A stretch of 64,000 nt of DNA from Podarcis liolepis (Eukaryota). The position numbers and the translations under genes were made by a program. The stretch lies in NCBI GenBank assembly GCA_965112155.1, contig OZ218102.1, one strand, 5' to 3'. The notes below the pieces were generated by a model. The model saw nothing but the letters and a program-made list of their open reading frames with translations, had not been told where the DNA came from and did not search any database. Below, piece after piece: positions 6,699-64,000 of the stretch (position 1 is its first letter; each line of letters starts with the position of its first letter).

Positions 6699-6769
<71 letters not shown>
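6699..6769. repeat. (AT)n tract at the left junction of the Penelope complex
   Basis: Direct; one AA interruption at 6707-6708. Confidence 0.95.
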
Positions 6770-6772
<3 letters not shown>

Positions 6773-7714
6773 TTCGTAGATTTTCACGGGTACAGGAATG
6801 CAGGTTTTGGTGTCCTCGGGTGTCTTCCCGTGTAAAAGTTGGGGTGTCTAGGCGACGTTTCGACGAGGTCTCACTCGTCATCTTCAGGCTGGTGCTTTCG
6901 GCTTCTTGTTACTGGAACAGAGCGGGATCTCAGTGTTTGAGTTCCTATAAATACTGTAGAGGGGTGTGGTGTATTGCCTCAAAAGTTCTGGGCAGAGGGG
7001 AAGTTCCCAGGCTAGTGTTCTTTTCTTCTTTTGTTCCTTAATTACTTGAGGGATATCTTGAGTGATTTCTTGAGTGATATTCTGAGTACCACTTAGGTGG
7101 GTCATTAGGTGTGGATTAGTTGCTAAAGCCTTCGTGTCTTGACCTCTTGAATTTGTGAAGAGTTTTTCTGGGAAGATGGCTGTACTGCACTTAGTTGTGC
7201 TCTGGCTTGGCTTCGTGTATAGGGGCGAGCTGTGGTTTTGTGCCCTGTGCCAGCCAGATCTGTGTAGGGATTGCAGGGGGGTGCAGCATCCGGAGGTGCC
7301 ACTATGGTTTGGTTACTGGATGGTGTCTGTAATTTATCTGTGGAGAGGGTCTGGGTTTGGGTCTGGTGTGGTTGATTGGTGGTGGCGTTCTGTGTGCCTC
7401 TGGATCTGGTGTCGGTTTTTGTGGGGAGGGCTAATTTCCAGATGTCTGGCAGGCGGGACGTGTCGTCACGCTTGTTCATGTTGTGAGGGTGTTTCTCTAT
7501 CTCGATGGCTTCCATGATTATTCTCTTGTGGTGATGTTCCATGTTAAAGAGCAATTTGGAATCTGCAAAATTAATTTCGTGTCCTGTTTCTTTCATGTGT
7601 TGGAAAAGAGAGGAAGATTTTTCTTCTTTTTTGACGGCATTCTTGTGTTCTGCGATACGTGCATTTATTCGTCTGTTTGTTTGTCCAATGTACGTGGCTG
7701 GGCAGACTTTGCAG
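6770..7714 (-). mobile_element. Penelope-like (Poseidon-type) arm A: 3' fragment, subvariant 1, with 30-nt tail (6770-6799)
   Basis: Near-exact reverse complement of ~8148-9062 plus the tail ATTCCTGTACCCGTGAAAATCTACGAAAAC. Encodes the GIY-YIG region from the YIG motif onward (ORF 7123-7596). Confidence 0.93.
6852..6890 (-). ncRNA. Minimal type I hammerhead ribozyme-like motif (arm A)
   Basis: Reverse complement reads CUGAAGA-U-GACGAG(UGAGAC)CUCGUC-GAAA-CG-UC. Confidence 0.75.
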
Positions 7715-7715
7715 A

Positions 7716-9062
7716 CTCCCTAGGACACACTATCTACCGGAAAAAAACACACACCAACCGCTACTTACATGCTCAATCACACCACCACCCTGCACAAATA
7801 AACTCCGTAGCCAAGACCCTCATCTCCAGAACCAAACGCCTGGCTGACAAAGACCACTTGACAACTGAGTTACAGAATCTCTCAAATGTGTTAATCGCCA
7901 ATGGATACCAGCAAAACAGGGTTACGAAGCTAATCCAAAAAGAAACACCCCCCAAAAACCAAGACACAGAAGAAAACAATGGCATGGCCCTCCTTCCTTA
8001 TATCAAGGGCACTACAGATAAAATTAGCAAAATCCTCCATAAACACAATATCAAAACAGCCTTTTGCACCAACCAAAAAATAGCCAATATCCTCAGAAAC
8101 CCCAAAGATAAAATCCAGTTGGAAAACCAAGGGATCTATGAAATACCCTGCAAAGTCTGCCCAGCCACGTACATTGGACAAACAAACAGACGAATAAATG
8201 CACGTATCGCAGAACACAAGAATGCCGTCAAAAAAGAAGAAAAAACTTCCTCTCTTTTCCAACACATGAAAGAAACAGGACACGAAATTAATTTTGCAGA
8301 TTCCAAATTGCTCTTTAACATGGAACATCACCACAAGAGAATAATCATGGAAGCCATCGAGATAGAGAAACACCCTCACAACATGAACAAGCGTGACGAC
8401 ACGTCCCGCCTGCCAGACATCTGGAAATTAGCCCTCCCCACAAAAACCGACACCAGATCCAGAGGCACACAGAACGCCACCACCAATCAACCACACCAGA
8501 CCCAAACCCAGACCCTCTCCACAGATAAATTACAGACACCATCCAGTAACCAAACCATAGTGGCACCTCCGGATGCTGCACCCCCCTGCAATCCCTACAC
8601 AGATCTGGCTGGCACAGGGCACAAAACCACAGCTCGCCCCTATACACGAAGCCAAGCCAGAGCACAACTAAGTGCAGTACAGCCATCTTCCCAGAAAAAC
8701 TCTTCACAAATTCAAGAGGTCAAGACACGAAGGCTTTAGCAACTAATCCACACCTAATGACCCACCTAAGTGGTACTCAGAATATCACTCAAGAAATCAC
8801 TCAAGATATCCCTCAAGTAATTAAGGAACAAAAGAAGAAAAGAACACTAGCCTGGGAACTTCCCCTCTGCCCAGAACTTTTGAGGCAATACACCACACCC
8901 CTCTACAGTATTTATAGGAACTCAAACACTGAGATCCCGCTCTGTTCCAGTAACAAGAAGCCGAAAGCACCAGCCTGAAGATGACGAGTGAGACCTCGTC
9001 GAAACGTCGCCTAGACACCCCAACTTTTACACGGGAAGACACCCGAGGACACCAAAACCTGC
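7716..9062 (+). mobile_element. Penelope-like arm B: 5'-truncated, subvariant 1, no tail; encodes RT thumb + GIY-YIG endonuclease (stop at 8739)
   Basis: YRKKTHTNRYL..SHHHP, LPYIKG..KISKIL, GIYEIPCKVCPATYIGQT, RIAEH and EAIEI..NMNKRD motifs. Ends at ...CAAAACCTGC. Confidence 0.93.
8972..9010 (+). ncRNA. Minimal type I hammerhead ribozyme-like motif (arm B)
   Basis: CTGAAGA core, 6-bp stem II GACGAG/CTCGTC, GAAA, palindromic ACGT stem III, predicted cleavage after C9008. Stem I has only ~2 bp. Confidence 0.75.
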
Positions 9063-9084
9063 ATATATATATATATATATATAT
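9063..9084. repeat. (AT)11 spacer between the 3' ends of the two Penelope insertions
   Basis: CCTGC(AT)11GCAGG, direct. Confidence 0.97.
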
Positions 9085-9136
9085 GCAGGTTTTGGTGTCT
9101 TCGGGTGTCTTCCCGTGTAAGAGTTGGGGTGTCTAG

Positions 9137-9175
9137 GCGACGTTTCGACGAGGTCTCACTCGTCATCTTCAGGCT
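9137..9175 (-). ncRNA. Minimal type I hammerhead ribozyme-like motif (arm C)
   Basis: Identical motif on the minus strand. Confidence 0.75.
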
Positions 9176-11857
9176 GGTGCTTTCGGCTTCTTGTTACTGG
9201 AACAGAGCAGGATCTCAGTGTTTGAGTTCCTATAAATACTGTTGAGGGGGTGTGGTGTATAGCCTCAAACGTTCTGGGCAGAGAGGAAGTTCCCAGGTTA
9301 GTGTGCCTTTTCTTCTTTTGTTCCTTAATTACTTGAGGGATATCTTGAGTGATTTCTTGAGTGATATTCTGAGTACCACTTAGGTGGGTCATTAGGTGTG
9401 GATTAGTTGCTAAAGCTTTCGTGTCTTGACCTCTTGAGCTTGTGAAGAGTTTTTCTGAGAAGATGGCTGTACTGCACTTAGTTGTGCTCTGGCTTGGCTT
9501 CGTGTATAGGGGCGAGCTGTGGTTTTGTGCCCTGTGCCAGCCAGATCTGTGTAGGGATTGCAGGGGGGGTGCAGCATCTGGAGGTGCCACTATGGTTTGG
9601 CTACTGGATGGTGTCTGTAATTTATCTGTGGAGAGGGTCTGGGTTTGGGTCTGGTGTGGTTGATTGGTGATGGCGTTCTGTGTGCCTCTGGTTCTGGTGT
9701 CGGTTTTTGTGGGGAGGGCTAATTTCCAGATGTCTGGCAGGCGGGACGTGTCGTCACGCTTGTTCATGTTGTGAGGGTGTTTCTCTATCTCGATGGCTTC
9801 CATGATTATTCTCTTGTGGTGATGTTCCATGTTAAAGAGCAATTTGGAATCTGCAAAATTAATTTCGTGTCCTGTTTCTTTCATGTGTTGGAAAAGAGAG
9901 GAAGTTTTTTCTTCTTTTTTGACGGCATTCTTGTGTTCTGCGATACGTGCATTTATTCGTCTGTTTGTTTGTCCAATGTACGTGGCTGGGCAGACTTTGC
10001 AGGGTATTTCATAGACCCCTTGGTTTTCCAACTGGATTTTATCTTTGGGGTTTCTGAGGATATTGGCTATTTTTTGGTTGGTGCAAAAGGCTGTTTTGAT
10101 ATTGTGTTTATGGAGGATTTTGCTAATTTTATCTGTAGTGCCCTTGATATAAGGAAGGAGGGCCATGCCATTGTTTTCTTCTGTGTCTTGGTTTTTGGGG
10201 GGTGTTTCTTTTTGGATTAGCTTCGTAACCCTGTTTTGCTGGTATCCATTGGCGATTAACACATTTGAGAGATTCTGTAACTCAGTTGTCAAGTGGTCTT
10301 TGTCAGCCAGGCGTTTGGTTCTGGAGATGAGAGTCTTGGCTACGGAGTTTATTTGTGCAGGGTGGTGGTGTGATTGTGCATGTAAGTAGCGGTTGGTATG
10401 GGTTTTTTTCCGGTAGATAGTGTGTCCTAGGGAGCCATCAGGTTTTTTGTAGATTAGGACGTCAAGGAAGGGAAGTTGGTTGTTGGCTTCTATTTCCATA
10501 GTGAATTGTATTTTGGGGTGTAGGCTGTTGAGATGTGTGAGGAAGCTATCTAGTTTTTCTTTCCCATGTGGCCAAATTACAAAGGTGTCGTCAACATATC
10601 TGAGCCAAAGTTTGGGTTTGTGTTCTGACTTGTCTAAAGCATTGGTTTCAAAGTGTTCCATGTACAAATTTGCGATGACCGGTGAGAGGGGTGATCCCAT
10701 AGGTGCTCCTTCTATCTGTTTGTATCTTTGTCCATTGTGGATGAAGTACGTGTTGGTTAGGCAGTGGTTGGTCAGGTCCAGGATGTATTCGGGGGGATTG
10801 TATTTGTTTTGAATGGCTGTCAAGGCTTCATTAATGGGCACTTGTGTGAAGAGAGATACAACATCGAAGCTCACAAGTAGGTCATCGGGATGTAGGTTTT
10901 GCTTCTTTATTGTTTCTATGAACTGGAAGGAGTTTGTAACGTGTGAAGCGATGGATTCTGCATAGGGCTGAAGTTGCTTAGCGAGAAATTTAGCGAGATT
11001 TTGTAGAGGTGAGCCTATGGAGCTGACTATTGGTCTGAGTGGTGTTCCTTCTTTGTGTATCTTGGGGAGACCGTAGAGTTTGGGGCATCTGGATGATTTT
11101 TCTCTGGGGATGATTCTTAGCTGGATTTCTTCACTGATAGGAGAGGCTTTTATTTTGGATTTGGTGGTTTTTTTCCAGATAGGTGGTGGGATCTGTTTTT
11201 ATAGGTTGGTAGGTAGGGTCTTGGAGTAGATTTGATAGTTTTGCTTGGTAGTCCGATGTGTTCATCACAACAGTGGCATTACCTTTGTCTGCTGGGAGAA
11301 TGATTATGTTGTTGTCTTTCCTCAGGTTGGTGAGTGCTTTCTGTTCTTCTTTGTGTAAATTGCTTCTGGGTGGTTTGCTGGAGCAGAGGATGTTGGTGAC
11401 TTCAAGTCTGATTTTATTGGCTTCATCTGGGTTGATTTTGGTTAGGCTAGCTTCGACTCCGCATATGATGTTTTCCGTGGGGATGCGTCTCGGGGCGACT
11501 GCAAAGTTGAAACCTTTGGAGAGTACTTTGGTTTCAGTTGAGGTGAGGATCCTGTCTGATATGTTATGTACTGTTTGTTTCATGGGTTGTTGTGGAGGGT
11601 GGCTGGGCTTCTGGCGTTTCTCTAGTTTGTGGAGTTTGTTGGTGTGTCTGTCTGTCTTATGTGAGGTCTCAGTTTCAGCTCTCCAGACGGCTAGTTGTTT
11701 GCATTTGTCCCAGAGTGCAGGGTGGATTTTGTTACAGAGTTTGAGGTGAAGAGTGAGCAGATCTTTGTTGGTTTGGTTTAGTAGGTATCTTTTCTTATGT
11801 ATTTCGTTTCTGATTAGGGATAGTTCAGTTCGTTTCAGGATCCTTTCGGTAGCTGGT
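9156..11857 (-). pseudogene. Penelope/Poseidon pol (RT + GIY-YIG endonuclease), N-terminally truncated, two +1 homopolymer frameshifts
   Basis: Removing one T from T7 at 11168-11174 joins ORF 11131-11904 (PADKGNATVVM) to LYGLPKIHK..PLRPIVS, SFDVVSLFT, GAPMGSPLSPVIANLYM, RYVDD, PFLDV and GVYEIPC..YIGQT. G7 at 9563-9569 (6 in the other arms) shifts the C-terminus to ...QPEDDE. There is no Zn-finger linker between RT and EN, consistent with Poseidon rather than Neptune. Confidence 0.92.
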
Positions 11858-11970
11858 AACTTTGGCTCAGATATGTTGACGACACCTTTGTAATTTGGCC
11901 ACACGGGAAAGAAAAACTAGATAGCTTCCTCACACATCTCAACAGCCTACACCCCAAAATACAATTCACT

Positions 11971-13059
11971 ATGGAAATAGAAGCCAACAACCAACTTCCC
12001 TTCCTTGACGTCCTAATCTACAAAAAACCTGATGGCTCCCTAGGACACACTATCTACTGGAAAAAAACCCATACCAACCGCTACTTACATGCACAATCAC
12101 ACCACCACCCTGCACAAATAAACTCCGTAGCCAAGACTCTCATCTCCAGAACCAAACGCCTGGCTGACAAAGACCACTTGACAACTGAGTTACAGAATCT
12201 CTCAAATGTGTTAATCGCCAATGGATACCAGCAAAACAGGGTTACGAAGCTAATCCAAAAAGAAACACCCCCCAAAAACCAAGACACAGAAGAAAACAAT
12301 GGCATGGCCCTCCTTCCTTATATCAAGGGCACTACAGATAAAATTAGCAAAATCCTCCATAAACACAATATCAAAACAGCCTTTTGCACCAACCAAAAAA
12401 TAGCCAATATCCTCAGAAACCCCAAAGATAAAATCCAGTTGGAAAACCAAGGGGTCTATGAAATACCCTGCAAAGTCTGCCCAGCCACGTACATTGGACA
12501 AACAAACAGACGAATAAATGCACGTATCGCAGAACACAAGAATGCCGTCAAAAAAGAAGAAAAAACTTCCTCTCTTTTCCAACACATGAAAGAAACAGGA
12601 CACGAAATTAATTTTGCAGATTCCAAATTGCTCTTTAACATGGAACATCACCACAAGAGAATAATCATGGAAGCCATCGAGATAGAGAAACACCCTCACA
12701 ACATGAACAAGCGTGACGACACGTCCCGCCTGCCAGACATCTGGAAATTAGCCCTCCCCACAAAAACCGACACCAGAACCAGAGGCACACAGAACGCCAT
12801 CACCAATCAACCACACCAGACCCAAACCCAGACCCTCTCCACAGATAAATTACAGACACCATCCAGTAGCCAAACCATAGTGGCACCTCCAGATGCTGCA
12901 CCCCCCTGCAATCCCTACACAGATCTGGCTGGCACAGGGCACAAAACCACAGCTCGCCCCTATACACGAAGCCAAGCCAGAGCACAACTAAGTGCAGTAC
13001 AGCCATCTTCTCAGAAAAACTCTTCACAAGCTCAAGAGGTCAAGACACGAAAGCTTTAG
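11971..13059 (+). CDS. Open 362-aa truncated Penelope ORF (RT C-terminal part + intact GIY-YIG endonuclease)
   Basis: Uninterrupted ATG-initiated ORF with PFLDV, thumb and GVY..YIG motifs. It lacks the YVDD catalytic motif, which lies upstream of the ATG. Expression is unknown. Confidence 0.5.
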   Translation: MEIEANNQLPFLDVLIYKKPDGSLGHTIYWKKTHTNRYLHAQSHHHPAQINSVAKTLISRTKRLADKDHLTTELQNLSNVLIANGYQQNRVTKLIQKETPPKNQDTEENNGMALLPYIKGTTDKISKILHKHNIKTAFCTNQKIANILRNPKDKIQLENQGVYEIPCKVCPATYIGQTNRRINARIAEHKNAVKKEEKTSSLFQHMKETGHEINFADSKLLFNMEHHHKRIIMEAIEIEKHPHNMNKRDDTSRLPDIWKLALPTKTDTRTRGTQNAITNQPHQTQTQTLSTDKLQTPSSSQTIVAPPDAAPPCNPYTDLAGTGHKTTARPYTRSQARAQLSAVQPSSQKNSSQAQEVKTRKL

Positions 13060-13293
13060 CAACTAATCCACACCTAATGACCCACCTAAGTGGTACTCAG
13101 AATATCACTCAAGAAATCACTCAAGATATCCCTCAAGTAATTAAGGAACAAAAGAAGAAAAGGCACACTAACCTGGGAACTTCCTCTCTGCCCAGAACGT
13201 TTGAGGCTATACACCACACCCCCTCAACAGTATTTATAGGAACTCAAACACTGAGATCCTGCTCTGTTCCAGTAACAAGAAGCCGAAAGCACC

Positions 13294-13332
13294 AGCCTGA
13301 AGATGACGAGTGAGACCTCGTCGAAACGTCGC
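13294..13332 (+). ncRNA. Minimal type I hammerhead ribozyme-like motif (arm D)
   Basis: Identical motif; predicted cleavage after C13330. Confidence 0.75.
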
Positions 13333-13412
13333 CTAGACACCCCAACTCTTACACGGGAAGACACCCGAAGACACCAAAACCTGCATTCCTGTACCCGTGA
13401 AAATCTACGAAA

Positions 13413-13414
<2 letters not shown>

Positions 13415-13476
<62 letters not shown>
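13415..13476. repeat. (AT)31 tract at the right junction of the Penelope complex
   Basis: Direct. Confidence 0.97.
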
Positions 13477-25268: not shown

Positions 25269-25551
25269 TAGCTCAGTTGGTTAGAGCAGTGTTTCCCAAC
25301 CTTGGGCCTCCAGCTGTTTTTGAACTACAATTCCCATCATCCCTGACCACTGGTCTTGCTAGCTAGGGATGATGGGAGTTGTAGTCCAAAAACAGCTGGA
25401 GGCCCAAGGTTGGGAAACACTGGGTTAGAGCATGGTGCTGAAAATGTCAAGGGTGCAGGATCAATCCCTGCATGGGACATTTGCATATTCCCACATTGCA
25501 GGGAGTTAGACAATATGATCCTTTGGGGCCTTACAACTCTATGATTCTGTG
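25269..25551 (+). mobile_element. tRNA-Ile-derived SINE with CR1-like tail, interrupted by a hAT MITE
   Basis: TAGCTCAGTTGGTTAGAG|CATGGTGCTG..AAGG.TGCAGG.TCAATCCC resembles tRNA-Ile. Tail CATTGCAGGGAGTTAGAC..CAACTCTATGATTCTGTG. Confidence 0.75.
25287..25422. mobile_element. 136-bp palindromic hAT MITE
   Basis: Long TIRs CAGTGTTTCCCAACCTTGGGCCTCCAGCTGTTTTTG / ..AAAAACAGCTGGAGGCCCAAGGTTGGGAAACACTG; perfect 8-bp TSD GGTTAGAG. Confidence 0.92.
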
Positions 25552-28108: not shown

Positions 28109-28591
28109 TTTTGTTGTTGTTGTTTAGTCGTTTAGTCGTGTCCGACTCTTCGTGACCCCATGGACCAGAGCATGCCAGGCACTCCTGTTTTCCACTGCCT
28201 CCCACAATTTGGTCAAACTCAGGCTGGTAGCTTCGAGAACACTGTCCAACCATCTCATCCTCTGGCGTCCCCTTCTCCTTGTGCCCCCCATCTTTCCCAA
28301 CTTCAGGGTCTTTTCCAGGGAGTCTTCCCTTCTCATGAGGCAGCCAAAGTATTGGAGCCTCAGCTTCACGATCTGTCCTTCCAGTGAGCACCCAGGGCTG
28401 ATTTCCTTAAGAATGGATAGGTTTGATCTTCTTGCAGGCCATGAGACTTTCAAGAGTCTCTTCCAGCACCATAATTCAAAAGCACCAATTATTCGGCGAT
28501 CAGCCTTCTTTATGGTCCAGCTCTCACTTCCATGCATTACTACTGGGAAAACCATAGCTTTTACTATACGGACCTTTGTTGGCAAGGTGAT
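28109..28591 (-). mobile_element. RTE-BovB LINE 3' fragment
   Basis: ORF 28124-28585: TKVRIVKAMVFPVVM.GSESWTIKKA..FELWCW.RLL..LKLQYFG..EKTL.LGK..G.RRRGRQR.RWLD..VHGVTKSRTRLND; (CAA)n tail. Confidence 0.95.
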
Positions 28592-30075
28592 TTTTTTTTT
28601 TTTTTTTGTGCCTTATAGCACACTCCTAACTATTCAGTGCGGCTTAATTCAAGTAAGTGGGGTTTGGACTGCAGCCTTAGTCACTTACAGCTAACATATG
28701 CCATTCCCCTTATTAAGTTTACTAGTTTTGTACTCAGACACAACAATTTCAGCTTGTACTCTGATAAGACTCTTTGGCTGCATCCGTTTCCAAAGGTCCC
28801 TCTCCTAGTTTTGGTTTTCATGATGAGTTCAATTATGTAACCTGAAGCATAAAAGAGGAGCATTTAGAAGTTGCAATTTCTAGAGTCTGGGTGTTGAATA
28901 GGGATGGGGTTCTCTGTTTGTCTTTTGATCACATCCCCCCCCCCATTGGGGTTCACATTTTCCTGCAAATTTATGAGTCTGGCAACCCCTCAAAGCCTTT
29001 CTCTCTGGCCCCAGACCACAATCCTTTCCTGGCCGCATTCCCTCTTCTTAGAGCACATCCTTGACATCCTCCTAGAAGATTTTTGCCTGGCTGGAGTGTG
29101 TCCTCAAACACTGGTAATGCTTCTCACTTGGCTAGATGGAAGATGCAGGTGTCTTTGTGTGGGTCTGCGGAAAAATTAGCCTACTGTAAGAAGCTAAAAT
29201 TCACATTCATTGCTATGCCCACTTTCATCTCTGACCCTGCCCCCCACTACCATATGGCAGCCATTAGCCCTTCAAACAAGTTCGTACAACCCCATAGATT
29301 TCAATAGGCTTAGCACTCTTCAGTTCCCCCAGCTGGAAATTTACTGATGATGAGAAAGATATACATCTTGCTAAGTCCTGTGCATTTGAAAGCAGCATTT
29401 TAAAATATTAGGCACTATAGATAATTGCATCCAAAGGGGAGGCAGGTGGGCCTTATTTATTTGCAACATTTCTTAAAATGATGTCTTCCATGTGAAAATG
29501 ATTCTTCCGAGGTAACGTCACTTTTTGTACAGTAAAATTAAGCTGAGGCTGTCCATCAACTTGACGTGCTGTAAATTGCAAGTTAAAAACAGTTCCAAAG
29601 CTGTGCATACATATATATAGCAGATACCAGTTGAGCACATTAGAGATGCCAGAATCCATATTGTGAACAATATTGTGTGAAAATCTAGGACTGTTGCCTG
29701 TCACAGCTGTGAAAGTTCAAATATGATTTTTACGCTTAATGAATGTTCCGTTTGGGTGTCATTAGTATCTGGACAGCAAGAAGTGTGTCTGTGTCAGTTC
29801 AGTAACTTGTTAATTCCAACCCACCCCCACCAAAGCTTGAAATGCCTTTGTGAAGTTACTGCAGCTCTAGTGTGAGTGTGAGGTCATGTTCGGGGGCATT
29901 AGTACCACTTCAGTAAACTTTGAAGCTGACTTGGAGAGTCCTGCTCAGGAAAATTATCTTCAGCGTTTCAAGAGAAGTAAAAAAGTGTCATGAAAAGATG
30001 AGTAACATCTCCTAGCAAGATCCAACAACAGGCTTTGAATGAGGAGGTGTAACGGGCTGCTCTTCTCTGCCAATA

Positions 30076-30303
30076 CAGTGGTGCCTCTGGTTAAGTACTT
30101 CATTCGTTCCGGAGATCCGTTCTTAACCTGAACCACCACTTTAGCTAATGGGGTCTCCTGCTGCTACCGCTGCGCCGAAGGAGCACGATTTCTGTCCTCA
30201 TCCTGAAGCAAAGTTCTTAACCCGAGGCAATATTTCTGGGTTAGCCAAATCTGTAACCTGAAGTGTATGTAACCTGAAGCCTATGTAACCTGAGGTACCA
30301 CTG
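30076..30303 (+). mobile_element. Tc1/mariner (Tigger/pogo-like) MITE
   Basis: TA-CAGTGGTGCCTC..GAGGTACCACTG-TA. Confidence 0.9.
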
Positions 30304-30390
30304 TAAGATATTTGAGGTGGTATTCACACTCAATCCAAATAATTATTCCCAGTCAATGAATTATCGGGGGGGGGGGAGAGGATAGTTTTA

Positions 30391-30635
30391 CAGTGGTACC
30401 TCGGGTTAAGTACTTAATTCATTCTGGAGGTCTGTTCTTAACCTGAAACTGTTCTTAACCTGAAGCACCACTTTAGCTAATGGGGCCTCCTGCTGCTACC
30501 GCTGCACCGAAGGAGCATGATTTCTGTTCTCATCCTGAAGCAAAGTTCTTAACCTGAGGTACTATTTCTGGGTTAGCGGAGTCTGTAACCAGAAGCGTAT
30601 GTAACCTGAAGAGTATGCAACCCGAGGTACCACTG
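30391..30635 (+). mobile_element. Tc1/mariner MITE, same family
   Basis: TA-CAGTGGTACCTCGGGTT..AACCCGAGGTACCACTG-TA. Confidence 0.92.
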
Positions 30636-30678
30636 TATTTTGTTCTGTTGTGCTAGGAGCCAGCCCAAAGGTGTAAAC

Positions 30679-30814
30679 CAGGCATAGGCAAACTCATCCC
30701 TCCAGATATTTCAAGACTACAATTCCCATCATCCCTGACCACTGATCCTGTTAGCTAGGGATGATGGGAGTTGTAATCCCAAAACATCTGGAGGGCCGAG
30801 TTTGCCTATGCCTG
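30679..30814. mobile_element. 136-bp palindromic hAT MITE
   Basis: TIRs CAGGCATAGGCAAACT / AGTTTGCCTATGCCTG; perfect TSD GTGTAAAC. Confidence 0.92.
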
Positions 30815-32416
30815 GTGTAAACCAAGAGATGCTTTGGAAGCATCTGATCTTTGATCTCCTCCTCCAGAGAACCTATTTTTAAGCCCCGAAAATGGAGTAT
30901 CCCTATATTTTGATCAGACATCTGCTTTACCTTCTTGTTTACATGTGTATTGTTTGAAAAAGCATCTGAGACTTTTGATCAGCATGGGGGGGAAATGGCT
31001 CCTATGGAAAGATTTTTACATACAGAAAAAGCATATTTGGGTGATAAGAACAGATATGATTTTCAGACCAAAAAATGACACAGTGTAATCCTACATGTCT
31101 ACTAGAAAGTGAACCTATTGAGTTTAATGTGACAAAATCTCCAGTAAAAGGGGGTGGGACAGATTTACAGAATGTTTTTGTGCATCATGGCAACATTAAC
31201 AGTCATTATGGGTTATGAACTCTACCAGCAAAACCCAGCCAACATTAAGCATATTTTATGTACCAACCTCCCTACTGCCTTTCCTCTTCCCCCTTCTGGT
31301 AAGCCACAGCAATGTTGGTGCCAGGAGATAAGCTAAATACGACAACTCAAAAAAAGAAAAAGACCAAAAACATCAAATTGGGAGGCTGAAAGGGAACACT
31401 GACCCGCCAAATGGGAGTCGATTGTATCGGTGTCAAAACCAAGAAACACATTGGAAATATGGTTGTGTCTTGGGCTAAGTCTAAGCTGAAACAGGAAGTC
31501 TCTAATAGCCCTTCCTGTCTTGAAAGGCCCAGTGACAATTTGGGGTGGGTAGGGCCAGTCCAAAGCCTGAGAAAAATTTACTTCATTGCTCAGTCCAGGT
31601 AGATGCAGTTCTTTGGCTTACCACATAGGACAGCTATACACAGAATCCAAGGGCTCATGGAAAAGCTATTGGAAGCAACGGGAGTAAACAACTTTTAACG
31701 TTGACTAGATTGCATCCCTCTTGGTTTTTTTGATAGTATTTACATTAGCTGCCTTCCAGTTGTGTTCTTAAAGTGGAATTGGTGCAACTGCAAATAGAAT
31801 AACCCTTCAGATTATGCAAGCGGAAAGCAAACTGTGGTTTTGACCAAGGAGTCTTGCTTTACGGTGGTCAGTGGAGTCTTGGTGTTTGGTTTATTTACCA
31901 TTATATGGTATGAATGACCTTGCTGCTCCAGCTCTGCTGATTTTGAAACGCACTTCTTTTGCAATTATCTAAATGCCTTGCCTGTGCTTCCATGCTCAAT
32001 GAACCCTCAAAGGCCAGTTATTGTTCTGTGTATTTTGCTGCTGCGAATGTTATCCCCTAATAATTCTCAAAAATCAATCTTCCCTAAGTAATTTCCTCTA
32101 TTGATATTTGCTCTGAAAACACACGCACACACACTAAGAACAGGGGATTGGCTAGCCAAAGCTATACTTGCATCTATATCCTGCAGGAAGCTAGGATTTT
32201 GATTTGAATGTCTGTTCATCGCTGTGCACATTTGAGCTTGGCGTTTAGCATTTGTGTTTTCTTGGGAGTGTGTGGGTCTGGTTTAATTTGGTTTACTGCA
32301 TTTCATCATGCACCCCAATTGTGTGAAATTTCAATATCAGTTCCTATAGTTTCATGATGTGTTGCATTAACACAATACCAAGTTGTGGATGAGCTTACGA
32401 TGGTGCTTGGTAAATA

Positions 32417-41900: not shown

Positions 41901-44444
41901 ATTCTAGAAGCTAAGAGACCAGATGCAGGGTGCCTAAAAAACAAAACAGAGTAAAAACAAGTGAAAAAGAAGACATTGATGGAAGAGAGAGTCTGGAGGA
42001 GAAGGCTTGAAGAATGTAGGAAGGGAGTGAAACCATGCTTAAGATTGAAAGGTATGGACTCTGAAAAGGGTTTCAGTAAGAGTTGTTTAAAAAGAAGAAT
42101 TCTACCATTGTGCATCCTGCCACCACTGTGGTACAGTATTAGGAATTCGAAGATGGGATGAGGTCCAAGAAGTGATAGGGTGGTGTATTAAATGATTTGA
42201 ACTAAGCAGACTATTCTGTGACCACAAGCTTCCAGTGCACATTTCTGCTGACACATCCAGCATGCCAGATTTGAGTTATATCCTTTCAGACTCTCCTGAT
42301 GGTGTTGGAAATGTGTGTGCTGGGGACACTGTTAATTGTGGTAGCATGTGCCCTTAAACCCATCGTTCTGAATCCACCAGTGAAGATACAGAAAGGAAAC
42401 TCACCACGTGTACAAATGTTCACACTGGCATTAGGATTTGAGGCAGTTGGAATAGCCACCAGTTTTGCAGAGGCATCCTAACTGCAATGTAGGAATATGC
42501 ATCCCAGATATCTGTCTCAAGTTGTTGCTGGTATGGGTGATGGTAGCTGTTGCCTTGTGTTTGAAGAATGACTGTTGACTAGTGCCAAACAGCATATAAC
42601 TTTATTCCATAACTACGTTGCAATAAACCATGGGATTATGCCAGTGCAGTTACTGAAACCAATTTACACAGAATACTTACATACTCAGATGATGGATGAG
42701 GCAGTTGGTAAACTTAAACAACCATTGTATACATTACATTGGAAAGGATACTGTTAGAGGCAATAGTTCAATAAGGCAGCAGGGAAGGTGGAATTGGGAA
42801 CAGAAGAGTTGGGGGAAATGGAAGACATAGAATCTCTAGGCATCTAGGCTCTCCCAGCATGTCAACTCTTCACAGATCCCATTGTGGAGATGCCCAAACC
42901 CTCATCATGCTGGTTCATAGGTGATTGCTTCCAAAAATAACTTCCATATGGCTGGGTTTCCAAGTTGCTGCAGGAATTTTTGAACCAACTTCTATGCCAG
43001 TATCCTTTGTGAAGTTTTTGTGCTAGTGTGATACCCCTTTTAGAGGAGTGATAGCTTTGGAAAATGAAAAAGCTATTGTGGGCAGCCACAAAACCCCCAT
43101 TTTATGCAGGAAAACCGGCAATACTCAAACCACCCCCAAACAACAGGCAAAAAGGCACCCTCCTAAAAACTCAATAGATATGAAAATTGGGAGGGGTCGA
43201 GGGCCTTGACAGGCACCACATTGAGGACCCCAGGCGTAGGTGCTTGGGGGAGGGAACAGGGGCCTTTGCCACAAATTATCGGCCAGGTAGATCAGCTCCC
43301 CAGTGCAATTGTAAGAATCTCTGTTTAAAGTTTGGATTATGCAGATAGGGTTCAGCTTTTAGTCATCCTACTTGACAAAGGGAATGGAAAACACAAATTA
43401 GAAAGTGAATAAGCAATGCAAATCAATAGGAATTACTTCCTCCTAAAAAAAACCCCAATCAAGTAAAGTGAAATGGAAGCCCAATAGTTCTTAGCAGTGC
43501 TGTTGTGGAACCTAAGCCCCAAGGTGTAATTGAAATCTAATGGTGATCTGAATCCTTTGAGGAATTAAATTGTTATTGCAGGGGGAGAAATAAAGTTTCC
43601 TTAATATTAACAAAGTCTACTGACATACAATTTTCTCTGAGGGCTACTTCATAGCTTAGCTGCCTTATTGCTGCATTAGGACAAGTATCAGAAAAAGGAG
43701 TGAATGTGGTCTTCTTTTCATTCCAGGTCTATGACATGCCCTAGAAAAAAATCTTCCCTACTCCCTACCCCAGTAATACTGGCTTTGAACATTCTTACGC
43801 ATAATGGCTGAATATTCCAAAGTCTTGAGGAACCAACAGATGTATCATGTATCACCTTCCAGAGACTTTAGTTCACATCATCAGGACCACTGAGTGTATC
43901 CTCAATTGACAGTTTCTATAGCTATAAGTATATATTGATAAGGATGTGTGGGTGGATCAGTGTGTTTCTGGTGTGTGTCAATTATTCCATGTGCTCAATT
44001 ATATGTTCATTCAATTCTGGTTCTGAATGAAAAGTTGCATTATTTATGAACTTATTTTTCATGAAATAAAATGCATTTTACTCTAGAGTATGTAGCTTTG
44101 TCAAAAACATGCATTCATTCCAATTTTGGTATTCTTTCGGAGCTGAGAACTGTATCTGAAAATTCAAAGAAGTGTGAAAGCTGATGGGTAAATGCATACC
44201 AAGCCATGTGTGAGTCCGTGAGGAAGTGCAGATATCGTTCACTTAAAAATGTGGACCTAACAAAATCCTTGAGCTTCCAGAGCCATATGTCTGATGCTGC
44301 GAAGAACCGATTTAATATTATCATGGACCACTCCTTGGTACACTAGCCTTCTGAACTTGCAGAATGGACCTTTCATTTCCTCTCCCTTGCAGCCCCCTGT
44401 GTACCCTCAAAATCAGCTCCAGAGGGTTGGAAGACCCTCTGGAG

Positions 44445-44580
44445 CAGGCATAGGCAAACTTGGCCCTCCAGATGTTTTGGGACTGCAATTCCCATCATCC
44501 CTGACCACTGGACCTGTTAGCTAGGGATCACGGGAGTTGTAGGCCAAAAACATCTGGAGGGCTGAGTTTGCCTATGCCTG
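44445..44580. mobile_element. 136-bp palindromic hAT MITE
   Basis: TIRs CAGGCATAGGCAAACT / AGTTTGCCTATGCCTG; TSD CTCTGGAG / CTCTAGAG. Degenerate relatives lie near 5030-5140, 27050-27185, 33560-33690, 50840-50970, 58910-59040 and 63780-63910. Confidence 0.92.
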
Positions 44581-45785
44581 CTCTAGAGAAGAGTGCATGT
44601 TTGGAGGAGAGGAAATGGAAGTGCTGCTTGAATACAAACCACTCAAAATCCAGTGCATGGACATTTGAAATATATTCTCAATGACAAAATCCAGGAATAA
44701 TCCAAGAATCAACTGTAAACTCTGTGCCTATAGGCATTTAATTTTGTGCATGGTCACTGCATTGAAATCTTAAGCCCACTCATGGATCCCTGAGGCATTG
44801 AAAGCACAATATCTGTGCTGAGAATATTCACCATCTGGGTTTTCACTAAAGATCCAGTCCGCTTTCTAAGCAATTTCTCTTTGAAATGAAAGGGAAGGCT
44901 GATCATTTTTTTTATAAAAAAAACATATCTGATAACTGCAACTAGGTTCTTATTGACTTTTATGATTATGTTTAGGGATGTGAGAAGAAGCTACTACAAA
45001 CTGATCTGACGTTCACTAATTCATACACATCTCGACCTGAGCTCAATATTAGAAAAATCAGATTTGCTAGCACAGTAGAAAGTAGCTATGTTTCAAAATG
45101 TGTAAATGGGTTAATCTGCTCTAAAACATTGCTTTGCCAGCTGCGTATTTAAACATTAATGAGACAGTCAGGGAGGGAATGAGCAGTTAACGCTCTTGAC
45201 CTGAGAAATGGATTGCTATTTTTAGGAGACAAAGGATATAGCAAACTGAAGGTTTGTACATTATACAAAATCCACTGTATTATTATTATTATTAAAAAAA
45301 TATAGCTTCTTGCAGCATATAGCTGCTAGGCAGAAATGGATTTTCAGGGCAGAATGGCACAGTTTGGTTTCAGGAGTTATAAGAAGGGTTTAATACATTT
45401 GCTTGCAATCAGAGCTTGGGCAAAGTCTGTGCATTAGTTCTTAGCAAAGTTTGGAGAGTTCTCATCCTTGTGAGGTTCAAAGAACTATTAGAAAAATGTG
45501 TCTGCAGCACTTTGCATGGTCCATGTAGAACTAAGGAAGTGTCATGAGCTCATGGGAAGCTTTTCGCTTTTGGGAAAGGATTTTATGAGAGACTGCATCA
45601 GAAGACTTAACCTTTCCATACTGCAGGGCCTCGCCTGTCAGTGTGTTATCTATAAACACCTTCATCCATCTCTAGTTGCATGCTGCTGGAATCCATCTCT
45701 CTCCTGAGACAATGGAAGAATGCATCTTTGGAGATGAATTCAAACCACTGGAGAATTACAGTGCCTGCTGTGACTGTAGAGACTG

Positions 45786-45962: not shown

Positions 45963-46325
45963 GTTGTTGTTGTTGTTTAGTCGTTTAGTCGTGTCCGACT
46001 CTTCGTGACCCCATGGACCAGAGCACGCCAGGCACTCCTGTCTTCCACTGCCTCCTGCAGTTTAGTCAAACTCATGCTGGGAGCTTCGAGAACACTATCC
46101 AACCATCTCGTCCTCTGTCGTCCCCTTCTCCTTGTGCCCTCCATCTTTCCCAACACCAGGGTCTTTTCCAGGGAGTCTTCTCTTCTCATGAGGTGGCCAA
46201 AGTATTGGAGTCTCAGCTTCAGGATCTGTCCTTCCAGTGAGCAATCAGGCCTGATTTCCTTAAGAATGGATAGGTTTGATCTTCTTGCAGTCCATGGGAC
46301 TCTCAAGAGTCTAAGAGTCTAAGAG
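45963..46325 (-). mobile_element. RTE-BovB LINE 3' fragment with TSD
   Basis: ORF RVPWTARRSNLSILKEI..LQYFGHLMRR..VHGVTKSRTRLND; (CAA)n tail; 12-bp TSD TCCAGGTACCAT / TCCAGGCACCAT. Confidence 0.95.
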
Positions 46326-62673: not shown

Positions 62674-63350
62674 TTTCTTTTTTTTCCAATTTCTTTTTAT
62701 TAATTTTCCAAATTTATAACAAATATCACATACTAAAAAGAGAAATAAAAAAGAAAAAAGAAAAAAAGAAAAACATACAAATAAACACACAATCCTTCTA
62801 GAATCCAATTTAGTTTTCATTGTTAACTGACTTCCTCAAATCCCCCCTAACTGAATTCCATTGTATCCCCTTGTAATAGTTTTCCAATATCTTCTTTCTA
62901 ACAAAATTTACTCCTTCCAATTACTATCTTTACTTCTTTTCGTAATTTCTAAACCCATAATGTTTTACAGTTTAATCATATTCTATTCCTTAGCCAAATT
63001 AGTACTTTCAAGTAGCTTCTACTTGTCTTATACAGTGGTACCTCGGGTTACATACGCTTCAGGTTACAGACTCCGTTAACCCAGAAATAGTACCCCGGGT
63101 TAAGAACTTTGCTTCATAATGAGAACAGAAATTGTGCTCCGGCGGCGCAGCAGCAGCAGGAGGCCCCATTAGCTAAAGTGGTGCTTCAGGTTAAGAACAG
63201 TTTCAGGTTAAGAATGAACCTCCGGAACGAATTAAGTACTTAACCCGAGGTACCACTGTATTACAATATTTAACTAAATAGTCTTTAAATTTCATCCATT
63301 GCTCTTGGTGTTCATCTTCTTTCTGATCGCGGATTCTTCCAATAAGGTTG
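62674..63350 (-). mobile_element. L1 3' fragment (ORF2 C-terminus + 3' UTR) interrupted by a mariner MITE, inside an AGGGATG-family element (~62550-63735)
   Basis: LIGRIRDQKEDEHQEQWMKFKDYLVKYC resembles the squamate L1 ORF2 terminus; T-rich tail; GACTTCC motif. Confidence 0.65.
63033..63258 (-). mobile_element. Tc1/mariner MITE (same family as 30076 and 30391, opposite orientation)
   Basis: TA-CAGTGGTACCTCGGGTTA..TAACCCGAGGTACCACTG-TA. Confidence 0.93.
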
Positions 63351-64000
63351 CCCAGCTCCAATGTCCATTTAATCTTTATTGATTTTAAATATTGAATCCA
63401 TTCACCACAAAAAGAACCAAAGGGGAAAAAAATCACATCAAATACAAAAAACAATTTCTTCCATACATTGAGACTTCCGTCCTTTGTTTCCTTTTTGACT
63501 GCATATTGTATTACTTTTAACTTACCATAAATTATCTATAATTTTTGTAGCATATAACATTACAGAAGTTAATCAAAGCATGTCGAAGATTGTGTATATA
63601 AATTCTCATGAATTTTCATGAGGACTTCTAAAAAATAAAATAAAATTGCAAGCTGATGTGGAAGTCTGGAGAACTGACCCAAAGGTTGGAAAAATTAGAA
63701 ACCGAGAAACTGAAATAGACGTATCCACAAACCCCTAGTGTACACTTTACTATATGAAAAACTATGAAGAATGCCTACCAGCTTTCCCCAACCTGGTGAC
63801 CTCTACTTGGACTGCAACACCTATCAGCCAGAGCTAGCAAGGCCAAATGTTCAGGGATGATGGGAGCTGTTATCCCCAAACACCTGGAGGAACCAGGTTG
63901 AAGAAACCTTTAATTTCCCATTCGGCCAAGGGAAACACTTGGTATTTTACTTTTAGTTCAATCTTCCCTTCAGGGGAAAGGCTGGATTGACAAAAGTGTG

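What the first reader, a model, noticed from the sequence alone, without database searches (positions are those of the whole stretch)
8972..9010. Four identical minimal hammerhead motifs with a 2-nt loop III (ACGU palindrome) that can probably cleave only as dimers
Seen: CUGAAGA-U-[GACGAG/CUCGUC]-GAAA-CG-UC at 6852, 8972, 9137 and 13294, identical in both subvariants although the flanks differ. Stem III is one A-U pair closing CG, which is too tight to fold in cis, but ACGU is self-complementary. There is an extra U after A9, and stem I has only ~2 bp (GC/GC). Established: PLE pLTRs carry minimal type I hammerheads that are thought to act as dimers. Inference: this is either a dimer-dependent ribozyme or a degenerate one retained as a protein-binding structure.
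Basis: partly seen in the sequence, partly recalled or inferred. Interest (0 to 1): 0.7.

Follow-up and report, generated by a model that had tools for sequence, protein, structure and literature searches.

The report
Penelope retrotransposon's minimal hammerhead ribozyme
The four motifs are copies of an already described tiny self-cutting RNA at the end of a young, very abundant jumping gene, where it overlaps the gene's start codon and likely cuts only slowly, as a pair and with protein help; this is mostly ordinary.

Summary
Observation confirmed. The four copies lie on alternating strands (- + - +) at the 3' ends of 5'-truncated Penelope/Poseidon arms; the genome holds 5809 exact copies. 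The motif type and the dimer idea are in print (PMC4209133). Four identical copies show nothing (chance about 0.48 at 1.85% divergence), but distant relatives keep stem II (15 of 18) and a stem III palindrome (12 of 18) with changed letters. The 'extra U' is the U of the ORF's ATG (906 aa), as in Anolis PAc, whose hammerhead needs protein (PMC11167929). The window's copies are likely inert: an antisense arm buries them in a hairpin, and a relative's RNA shows A-to-I-type changes in the core. Side results: 44 of 46 palindromic insertions have one long and one short end and 45 of 46 have matching arms, pointing to one RNA primed twice. Copy starts peak at the predicted cut (39 of 259 arms), but control sites give peaks of similar size, so cleavage in vivo stays unproven. 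The scan noted similar stubs in other genomes.

The parts
8972..9010 (+). Minimal hammerhead copy 2: stem I GC 8973-8974, core CUGAAGA 8975-8981, extra U 8982, stem II 8983-9000, GAA 9001-9003, ACGU 9004-9007, C17 9008
6852..6890 (-). Minimal hammerhead copy 1 (C17 at 6854)
9137..9175 (-). Minimal hammerhead copy 3 (C17 at 9139), tail to tail with copy 2
13294..13332 (+). Minimal hammerhead copy 4 (C17 at 13330)
8981..8983 (+). ATG = A9, extra U, G10.1; start codon of the element's ORF (here followed only by the first 83 nt of the ORF). Position +1 in this report
   Evidence: 906-aa ORF from this ATG in L034 and L041
8909..8939 (+). TATA-like TATTTATA at 8909 and likely RNA start at G8939 (-42), the main 5' end of genomic copies
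   Evidence: role inferred
6769..7714 (-). PLE arm 1, subvariant A, 5'-truncated at -834, long 3' end (with 30-nt tail)
7716..9064 (+). PLE arm 2, subvariant A, 5'-truncated at -1266, short 3' end (+83); C-terminal ORF part with GIY-YIG
9083..11856 (-). PLE arm 3, subvariant B, 5'-truncated at -2687, short 3' end; RT and GIY-YIG in a 680-aa open frame (9156-11198), frame broken near 11198
11858..13415 (+). PLE arm 4, subvariant B, 5'-truncated at -1444, long 3' end
6709..6768 (.). (TA)n run at left end of the insertion
9064..9083 (.). (TA)10 between the two palindromic units; loop of the long RNA hairpin
13416..13475 (.). (TA)n run at right end of the insertion

Best explanation
The motif is the minimal hammerhead in the terminal repeat of a young Penelope/Poseidon retrotransposon, it overlaps the element's start codon, and it likely cuts only slowly, when two copies pair through ACGU with help from the element's protein. 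Shown: the motif, its place, the ATG overlap, full tandem source copies with hammerheads 2963 nt apart, and kept structure across the clade. Inferred: a tandem source is transcribed from about -42; the RT-endonuclease binds the RNA near the ORF start; two ACGU words form stem III; a cut after C+28 would remove the AUG and so end translation of that RNA, and would leave ends that could be ligated. Most templates are copied uncut. Each insertion is likely primed twice on one RNA, at +83 and at about +113, one primer per strand of a (TA)n target, and the two cDNAs are joined head to head. The four copies in this window are such dead-end products and are predicted to be inert, because their transcripts would fold into long double strands.
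For: RT and GIY-YIG in the arms. 906-aa ORF from the in-motif ATG in 2 of 2 full tandem loci read. Best protein hits: Podarcis muralis 98%, Anolis carolinensis 45%. In distant PLE loci, hits chosen by sequence boxes alone have stem II in 15 of 18 and a palindrome (ACGT 8, ACATGT, ATGCAT, ATAT, AGCT) in 12 of 18; control boxes 1 of 21 and 0 of 21; shuffled partners mean 4.8, max 11. N-termini show GAAACGTC in two frames (M..ETS, M..xKRR) in 8 of 27 proteins against 1% background, so the RNA word, not the peptide, is kept. 98 of 100 flank-selected copies have the intact core. 5809 intact copies against about 39 that start at the cut: templates are mostly uncut, as for PAc (PMC11167929). One copy (L129) inserted with the core destroyed by A>G changes shared by both arms. 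8939-9200 folds as one hairpin of -257.7 kcal/mol. RNA reads of a relative show A>G at core A14 (13325) only in one read direction: 21 of 74 vs 0 of 38, and 16 of 69 vs 0 of 61, in two of four runs.
Against: No cleavage was measured. The folding model gives the ACGU-ACGU duplex probability 0.0 between tandem copies 379 nt apart, though it cannot model the pseudoknotted dimer or protein. No pile-up of read ends at 13330/13331 in four fragmented RNA libraries, which are weak for this. The peak of copy starts at +29 is only about twice a sequence-matched control site, and a control window has an equally large peak at -5. Within the family, conservation of the core is not significant and is confounded by coding and by binding of the RT. 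The RNA runs are from a related organism without matched DNA.
Confidence: 0.72

Rival explanations
1. RNA-only dimer ribozyme: two copies in one transcript pair through ACGU and cut without protein.
For: Palindrome kept with changed letters in 12 of 18 distant hits. Dimeric and trimeric Schistosoma constructs cut weakly, monomers not (PMC4209133). Full tandem copies exist.
Against: ACGU duplex only about -3.1 kcal/mol, stem I unfavourable; partners 2963 nt apart in source copies; PAc showed no cleavage without protein (PMC11167929); nearly all copied templates were uncut.
Confidence: 0.13
2. Catalytically dead structure kept only as a protein-binding or translation-control hairpin over the start codon.
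For: A copy with a destroyed core still inserted (L129). Hammerhead mutants do not affect PAc insertion in vitro (PMC11167929). The AUG's G opens stem II, which could damp translation by itself.
Against: The catalytic boxes, G10.1-C/U11.1 (16 of 18) and the palindrome are all kept across proteins only 30-58% identical. PAc cleavage depends on C3 and G8 (PMC11167929). +29 is the top bin of its window in the first sample and above the two runners-up genome-wide.
Confidence: 0.1
3. The ACGU palindrome joins two different RNA molecules, like a retroviral dimer signal, and each RNA templates one arm of the palindromic insertion.
For: Insertions come as two arms; 1 of 46 units (L033) has arms of different subvariant 3' of the motif.
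Against: 45 of 46 units have the same subvariant in both arms, where random pairing would give roughly 45% mismatches; both arms of L129 share the same A>G changes and both arms of L208/L209 the same deletion. Two RNAs from one source locus are not excluded for the 45, but would not explain L129 unless the source itself carried the changes (not tested).
Confidence: 0.05

Closest known systems
Minimal hammerheads (min-HHR) of metazoan Penelope-like elements, Cervera and De la Pena 2014 (PMC4209133; read: abstract, results, discussion, part of methods)
   Same: Type I core, extra nucleotide between 9 and 10.1, G10.1-C11.1, long helix II, palindromic 15.2-16.2, place in the pLTR, thousands of dispersed copies, also pairs on opposite strands; dimer proposed and weak dimer cleavage shown.
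   Different: Helix I is 2 bp (as in their D. virilis case) rather than 4-5 bp; the family is near-invariant, like D. virilis and unlike most of their genomes. In the parts read they name turtle and snakes among reptiles, not a lacertid.
PAc, Poseidon element of Anolis carolinensis, Frangieh et al. 2024 (PMC11167929; read: main text and part of methods; three supplements searched, GenBank supplement unreadable)
   Same: [quoted passage not shown]
   Different: Protein only 45% identical to the best Anolis hit (that this hit is PAc is my inference); GAAACG read as K-R here and as E-T in the Anolis hit. A find for 'inverted' gave only a primer term, so the paper does not appear to link the two start sites to palindromic insertions.
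Hammerhead variants with diminished stem III, Lunse, Weinberg and Breaker 2016 (not held; seen only as title and summary sentence in PMC6765202)
   Same: Short stem III, PLE association, cleavage as dimers according to the title.
   Different: Could not compare sequences or rates.
Inverted pLTR insertions with a tail at one end, Arkhipova et al. 2013 (PMC3846280) and Craig et al. 2021 (PMC8557442); passages read
   Same: Head-to-head 5'-truncated copies, 30-40 bp tail often at one end only, microsatellite targets.
   Different: They suggest self-priming on an antisense template or endonuclease resolution. The counts here fit two cDNAs from one sense RNA better: either arm can reach further (short-end arm 24, long-end arm 16, equal 4 of 44), and shared A>G changes are on the sense strand.

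Membership tests
PLE minimal type I hammerhead | Core boxes CUGANGA, GAAA, NUH | tested here: met
   CUGAAGA, GAAA, GUC
PLE minimal type I hammerhead | One unpaired nucleotide between A9 and G10.1, and G10.1-C11.1 | tested here: met
   U8982, G8983-C9000; in relatives A 12, U 6 of 18
PLE minimal type I hammerhead | Helix II longer than 4 bp, kept by compensatory change | tested here: met
   6 bp; 15 of 18 distant hits with varied pairs
PLE minimal type I hammerhead | Palindromic helix III / loop 3 | tested here: met
   ACGU; 12 of 18 distant hits, five different palindromes, 0 of 21 controls
PLE minimal type I hammerhead | Short helix I closing the junction | tested here: inconclusive
   Only 2 bp possible; not in the lowest-energy fold
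PLE minimal type I hammerhead | Located in the pLTR of a PLE | tested here: met
PLE minimal type I hammerhead | Self-cleavage after C17 as a dimer or with protein | not testable with these tools
   Only indirect genomic tests, inconclusive
Rfam hammerhead families | Match to a curated covariance model | tested here: not met
   No hammerhead hit at E<=1; not filed under an Rfam family
Penelope/Poseidon clade of EN+ PLEs | Single ORF with RT and C-terminal GIY-YIG | tested here: met
   RVT_1 E 6e-16; GIY-YIG E 8e-4, below Pfam's cut-off; 906-aa ORF
Penelope/Poseidon clade of EN+ PLEs | Partial tandems forming pLTRs, inverted copies, 30-40 bp tail | tested here: met
Penelope/Poseidon clade of EN+ PLEs | No extra zinc-finger-like motif between RT and EN (present in Neptune and Nematis per PMC8557442) | tested here: met
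   By eye on the translation: no such cysteine cluster before the GIY box
Penelope/Poseidon clade of EN+ PLEs | Placement in an RT tree with named reference elements | not tested
   No tree built

The most novel reading that the evidence does not exclude
This genome holds a fossil record of the ribozyme at work and of how Penelope elements insert: 29 independent insertions start exactly at the 5' end of the predicted cleavage product, 8 of them with both arms, in the same geometry as copies that run off at the RNA start; about one template in ten that was copied to a natural end had been cut. Each palindromic insertion comes from one RNA primed at both RT start sites, and a unique array of 19 identical 379-nt units in two inverted arms records copying round a circular template.
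Probability: 0.3. Interest if true: 0.6.

Novelty: new member of a known kind. Interest (0 to 1): 0.3.

Why it matters
The motif itself adds one more family to a class described in 2014. What could matter is the open question whether PLE hammerheads cut in living animals and what for: PMC4209133 had no in vivo evidence and PMC11167929 found no reads ending at the cut. This young family, with thousands of near-identical dated copies, intact tandem sources, a mapped likely RNA start and two subvariants as markers, is a good test system for that question and for the origin of the inverted, one-tailed insertions.

Tried and rejected
1. 'The long-end arm always stops earlier' (trailing RT): rejected, 24 vs 16 vs 4 equal of 44. 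2. Simple fold-back of the first cDNA: cannot give units where the arm without tail reaches further and the other arm has the tail (24 of 44). 3. Two RNAs joined by ACGU as templates: rejected. 4. Excess conservation of the core within the family: 0 shared variant sites in 38 nt against 8.6 per 100 in the upstream pLTR and 0.9 per 100 in RT/EN, but those loci were chosen by an exact core match, so the test is biased; not used as support. The ungapped A/B comparison was misaligned upstream of -84 and is discarded. 5. Other hammerhead families in this genome: one pattern gave 1 match against 8 in the control; it allowed only an ACG-type stem III, so other families are not excluded. 6. Rfam: only AT-hairpin microRNA look-alikes below threshold. 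7. No RNA holder listed as such in the run index; contigs of four runs gave no variant in the core, not informative. 8. The +29 peak as proof of cleavage: not accepted, see full report. 9. Lunse 2016 not held; the PAc GenBank supplement could not be read, so PAc's motif was not aligned. 10. Literature searches listed no paper whose title or abstract start reports genomic truncations at the PLE cut site or twin priming in PLEs; most were seen as listings only and subscription papers are missing.

Full report
OBSERVATION. The motif is present four times, identical, on strands - + - +, and never in 100 shuffles. It has the hammerhead boxes CUGAAGA, GAAA and GUC, a 6-bp stem II, one extra U, a 2-bp stem I and ACGU in place of stem III. 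Rfam has no hammerhead match. Positions below are relative to the A of the ATG inside the motif (+1 = window 8981); the predicted cut follows C+28.

CONTEXT. Self-comparison, Pfam and mapping on a natural full unit show two head-to-head palindromic insertions of a Penelope-like element, side by side in (TA)n. Each arm is 5'-truncated and ends at the motif plus 55 or about 85 nt. The genome has 5809 exact cores and 383 copies that run past the tail into the ORF. In L034 and L041 a 906-aa ORF starts at the ATG formed by A9, the extra U and G10.1. The best protein hits are from a lacertid lizard (98%), a viper (82%) and Anolis (45%). PMC11167929 reports the same overlap for PAc.

CONSERVATION. 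Identity among four copies 98% alike is expected (0.48). In 100 copies selected by their flanks, 98 have the intact core and 2 a private change, which reflects youth. The real support comes from distance. Of 79 metagenome loci with related ORFs, 38 reach the endonuclease end with enough flank; 21 have the boxes downstream, 18 distinct; 15 of 18 pair in stem II and 12 of 18 have a palindrome, in five different spellings; controls 1 and 0 of 21. The 17 loci without boxes were not followed. The extra base is A in 12 and U in 6, so the start-codon overlap is common but not universal. In 8 of 27 protein N-termini examined (some of the 27 are truncated proteins), the word GAAACGTC appears in two reading frames (motifs chosen after seeing the sequences).

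CAN THESE FOUR COPIES WORK? Probably not. Same-strand partners are 2285 and 4322 nt apart, and a transcript through 8939-9200 folds into one hairpin of -257.7 kcal/mol that buries copies 2 and 3. Raw RNA reads of a related organism carry T>C in one read direction and A>G in the other across the motif, including core A14, in two bulk runs, with little in two single-cell runs (Fisher p 7e-5 and 2e-5). This pattern fits A-to-I editing of double strands; there is no matched DNA and reads cannot be assigned to loci.

HOW THE COPIES ARE MADE. In 50 clusters from contig 1 plus the window, 46 head-to-head units were found: 44 have one long and one short end, 45 have the same subvariant in both arms, with 42 differences in 25,978 shared positions, and the 5' extents of the arms correlate (rho 0.81). 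L129 has 20 and 15 A>G changes in its two arms, the same in the overlap, with no other changes. One RNA primed at both RT start sites described for PAc explains this best (inference). The layout is known (PMC3846280, PMC8557442); this reading of it I did not find.

DOES IT CUT IN VIVO? If it does, some cDNAs should run off at +29. I wrote this prediction down before reading the result. Positive control: 715 arms start between -55 and -31, and 46 of the 100 listed start exactly at G-42, 30 nt below a TATA-like box (counted by eye). Test: 259 arms start between +24 and +49. In the first 100, +29 is the top bin with 13, then +45 with 11 and +24 with 10; +27 and +28 have 0. Genome-wide: +29 39, +24 19, +45 17; outside the first sample 26, 9 and 6. 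The 39 arms are 31 loci; dropping one point mutant and one internal deletion leaves 36 arms in 29 loci with different flanks. Eight are perfect palindromes with a 2-nt GC overlap, the same joint as at -42. Against: the matched site -8, which also begins GCCT, has 18 arms in 15 loci (29 vs 15, one-sided p 0.024), and its window holds fewer starts overall (170), so the shares do not differ (36 of 259 vs 18 of 170, p 0.37, different filters). In that control window -5 holds 16 of 100 listed arms (by eye), a peak as large as +29 with no cut predicted. A (+26,+12) joint recurs 9 times in 50 listed loci. Verdict: suggestive, about 40% that the +29 excess reflects cleavage. Either way cut templates are under 1% of copies.

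MECHANISM. A slow, protein-assisted ribozyme in tandem source copies, using ACGU pairing for stem III; a cut would strip the AUG from the message and give ligatable ends; insertion does not need it. Steps shown here: anatomy, overlap, kept structure, mostly uncut templates. Steps from papers: weak dimer cleavage (PMC4209133), protein dependence and C3/G8 dependence (PMC11167929). Steps inferred: dimer in this family, effect on translation, circles.

PAPERS SEEN. PMC4209133 parts 1-2 of 4; PMC11167929 parts 1-2 of 4, a find, supplements searched; bioRxiv 10.64898/2026.07.22.740005 part 1 of 5 and a find; PMC6765202, PMC3846280, PMC8557442 passages only; Lunse 2016 not seen. Hammerhead numbering and the reading of A>G as ADAR editing are from my own knowledge. 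Supplementary alignments of PMC4209133 were not opened and may already list this family.

VERDICT. New member of a known kind; interest 0.3. The motif is ordinary; the single-template counts and the +29 lead are the parts worth keeping.

Noticed in passing
L298:533-8263 (G000:C4, about 19,591,100-19,598,900): One palindromic insertion whose arms hold 11 and 8 identical 379-nt units (-171..+213), each with a hammerhead; short end on one side, long end on the other, (TA)n flanks. The unit junction occurs nowhere else in the assembly. Fits repeated copying of a small circular or re-entered template; the seam is not at the hammerhead cut, so it does not show cleavage. Resembles the non-LTR retrozymes derived from PLEs. 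Assembly error not excluded.
   Followed up: partly
L129:472-831: Insertion with 20 and 15 A>G changes in its two arms and no other change; core destroyed; changes stop at +23, leaving +24 to +113 untouched.
   Followed up: partly
L186 (G000:C1:22,496,500-22,506,000): Two adjacent full 2962-nt tandem units with 0 differences; similar runs of three at other places.
   Followed up: partly
window 8976 (position -5) in genome-wide copies: 16 of 100 listed 5' ends in the -21..+5 window fall on U4 of the core; unexplained (minor RNA start or RT stop).
   Followed up: no
L208/L209: Both arms of one insertion lack -13..+28, the whole hammerhead, joined at a GC shared with +29.
   Followed up: no
L033: The one unit of 46 whose arms differ in subvariant, only at +46 and +67.
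   Followed up: no
window 25287-25422, 30670-30823, 44437-44588, 63807-63900: A family of about 140-bp imperfect palindromes, MITE-like.
   Followed up: no
window 28111-28459 and 45964-46312; 30072-30637 and 63043-63262: Other dispersed repeats, 93% and 81-91% alike.
   Followed up: no
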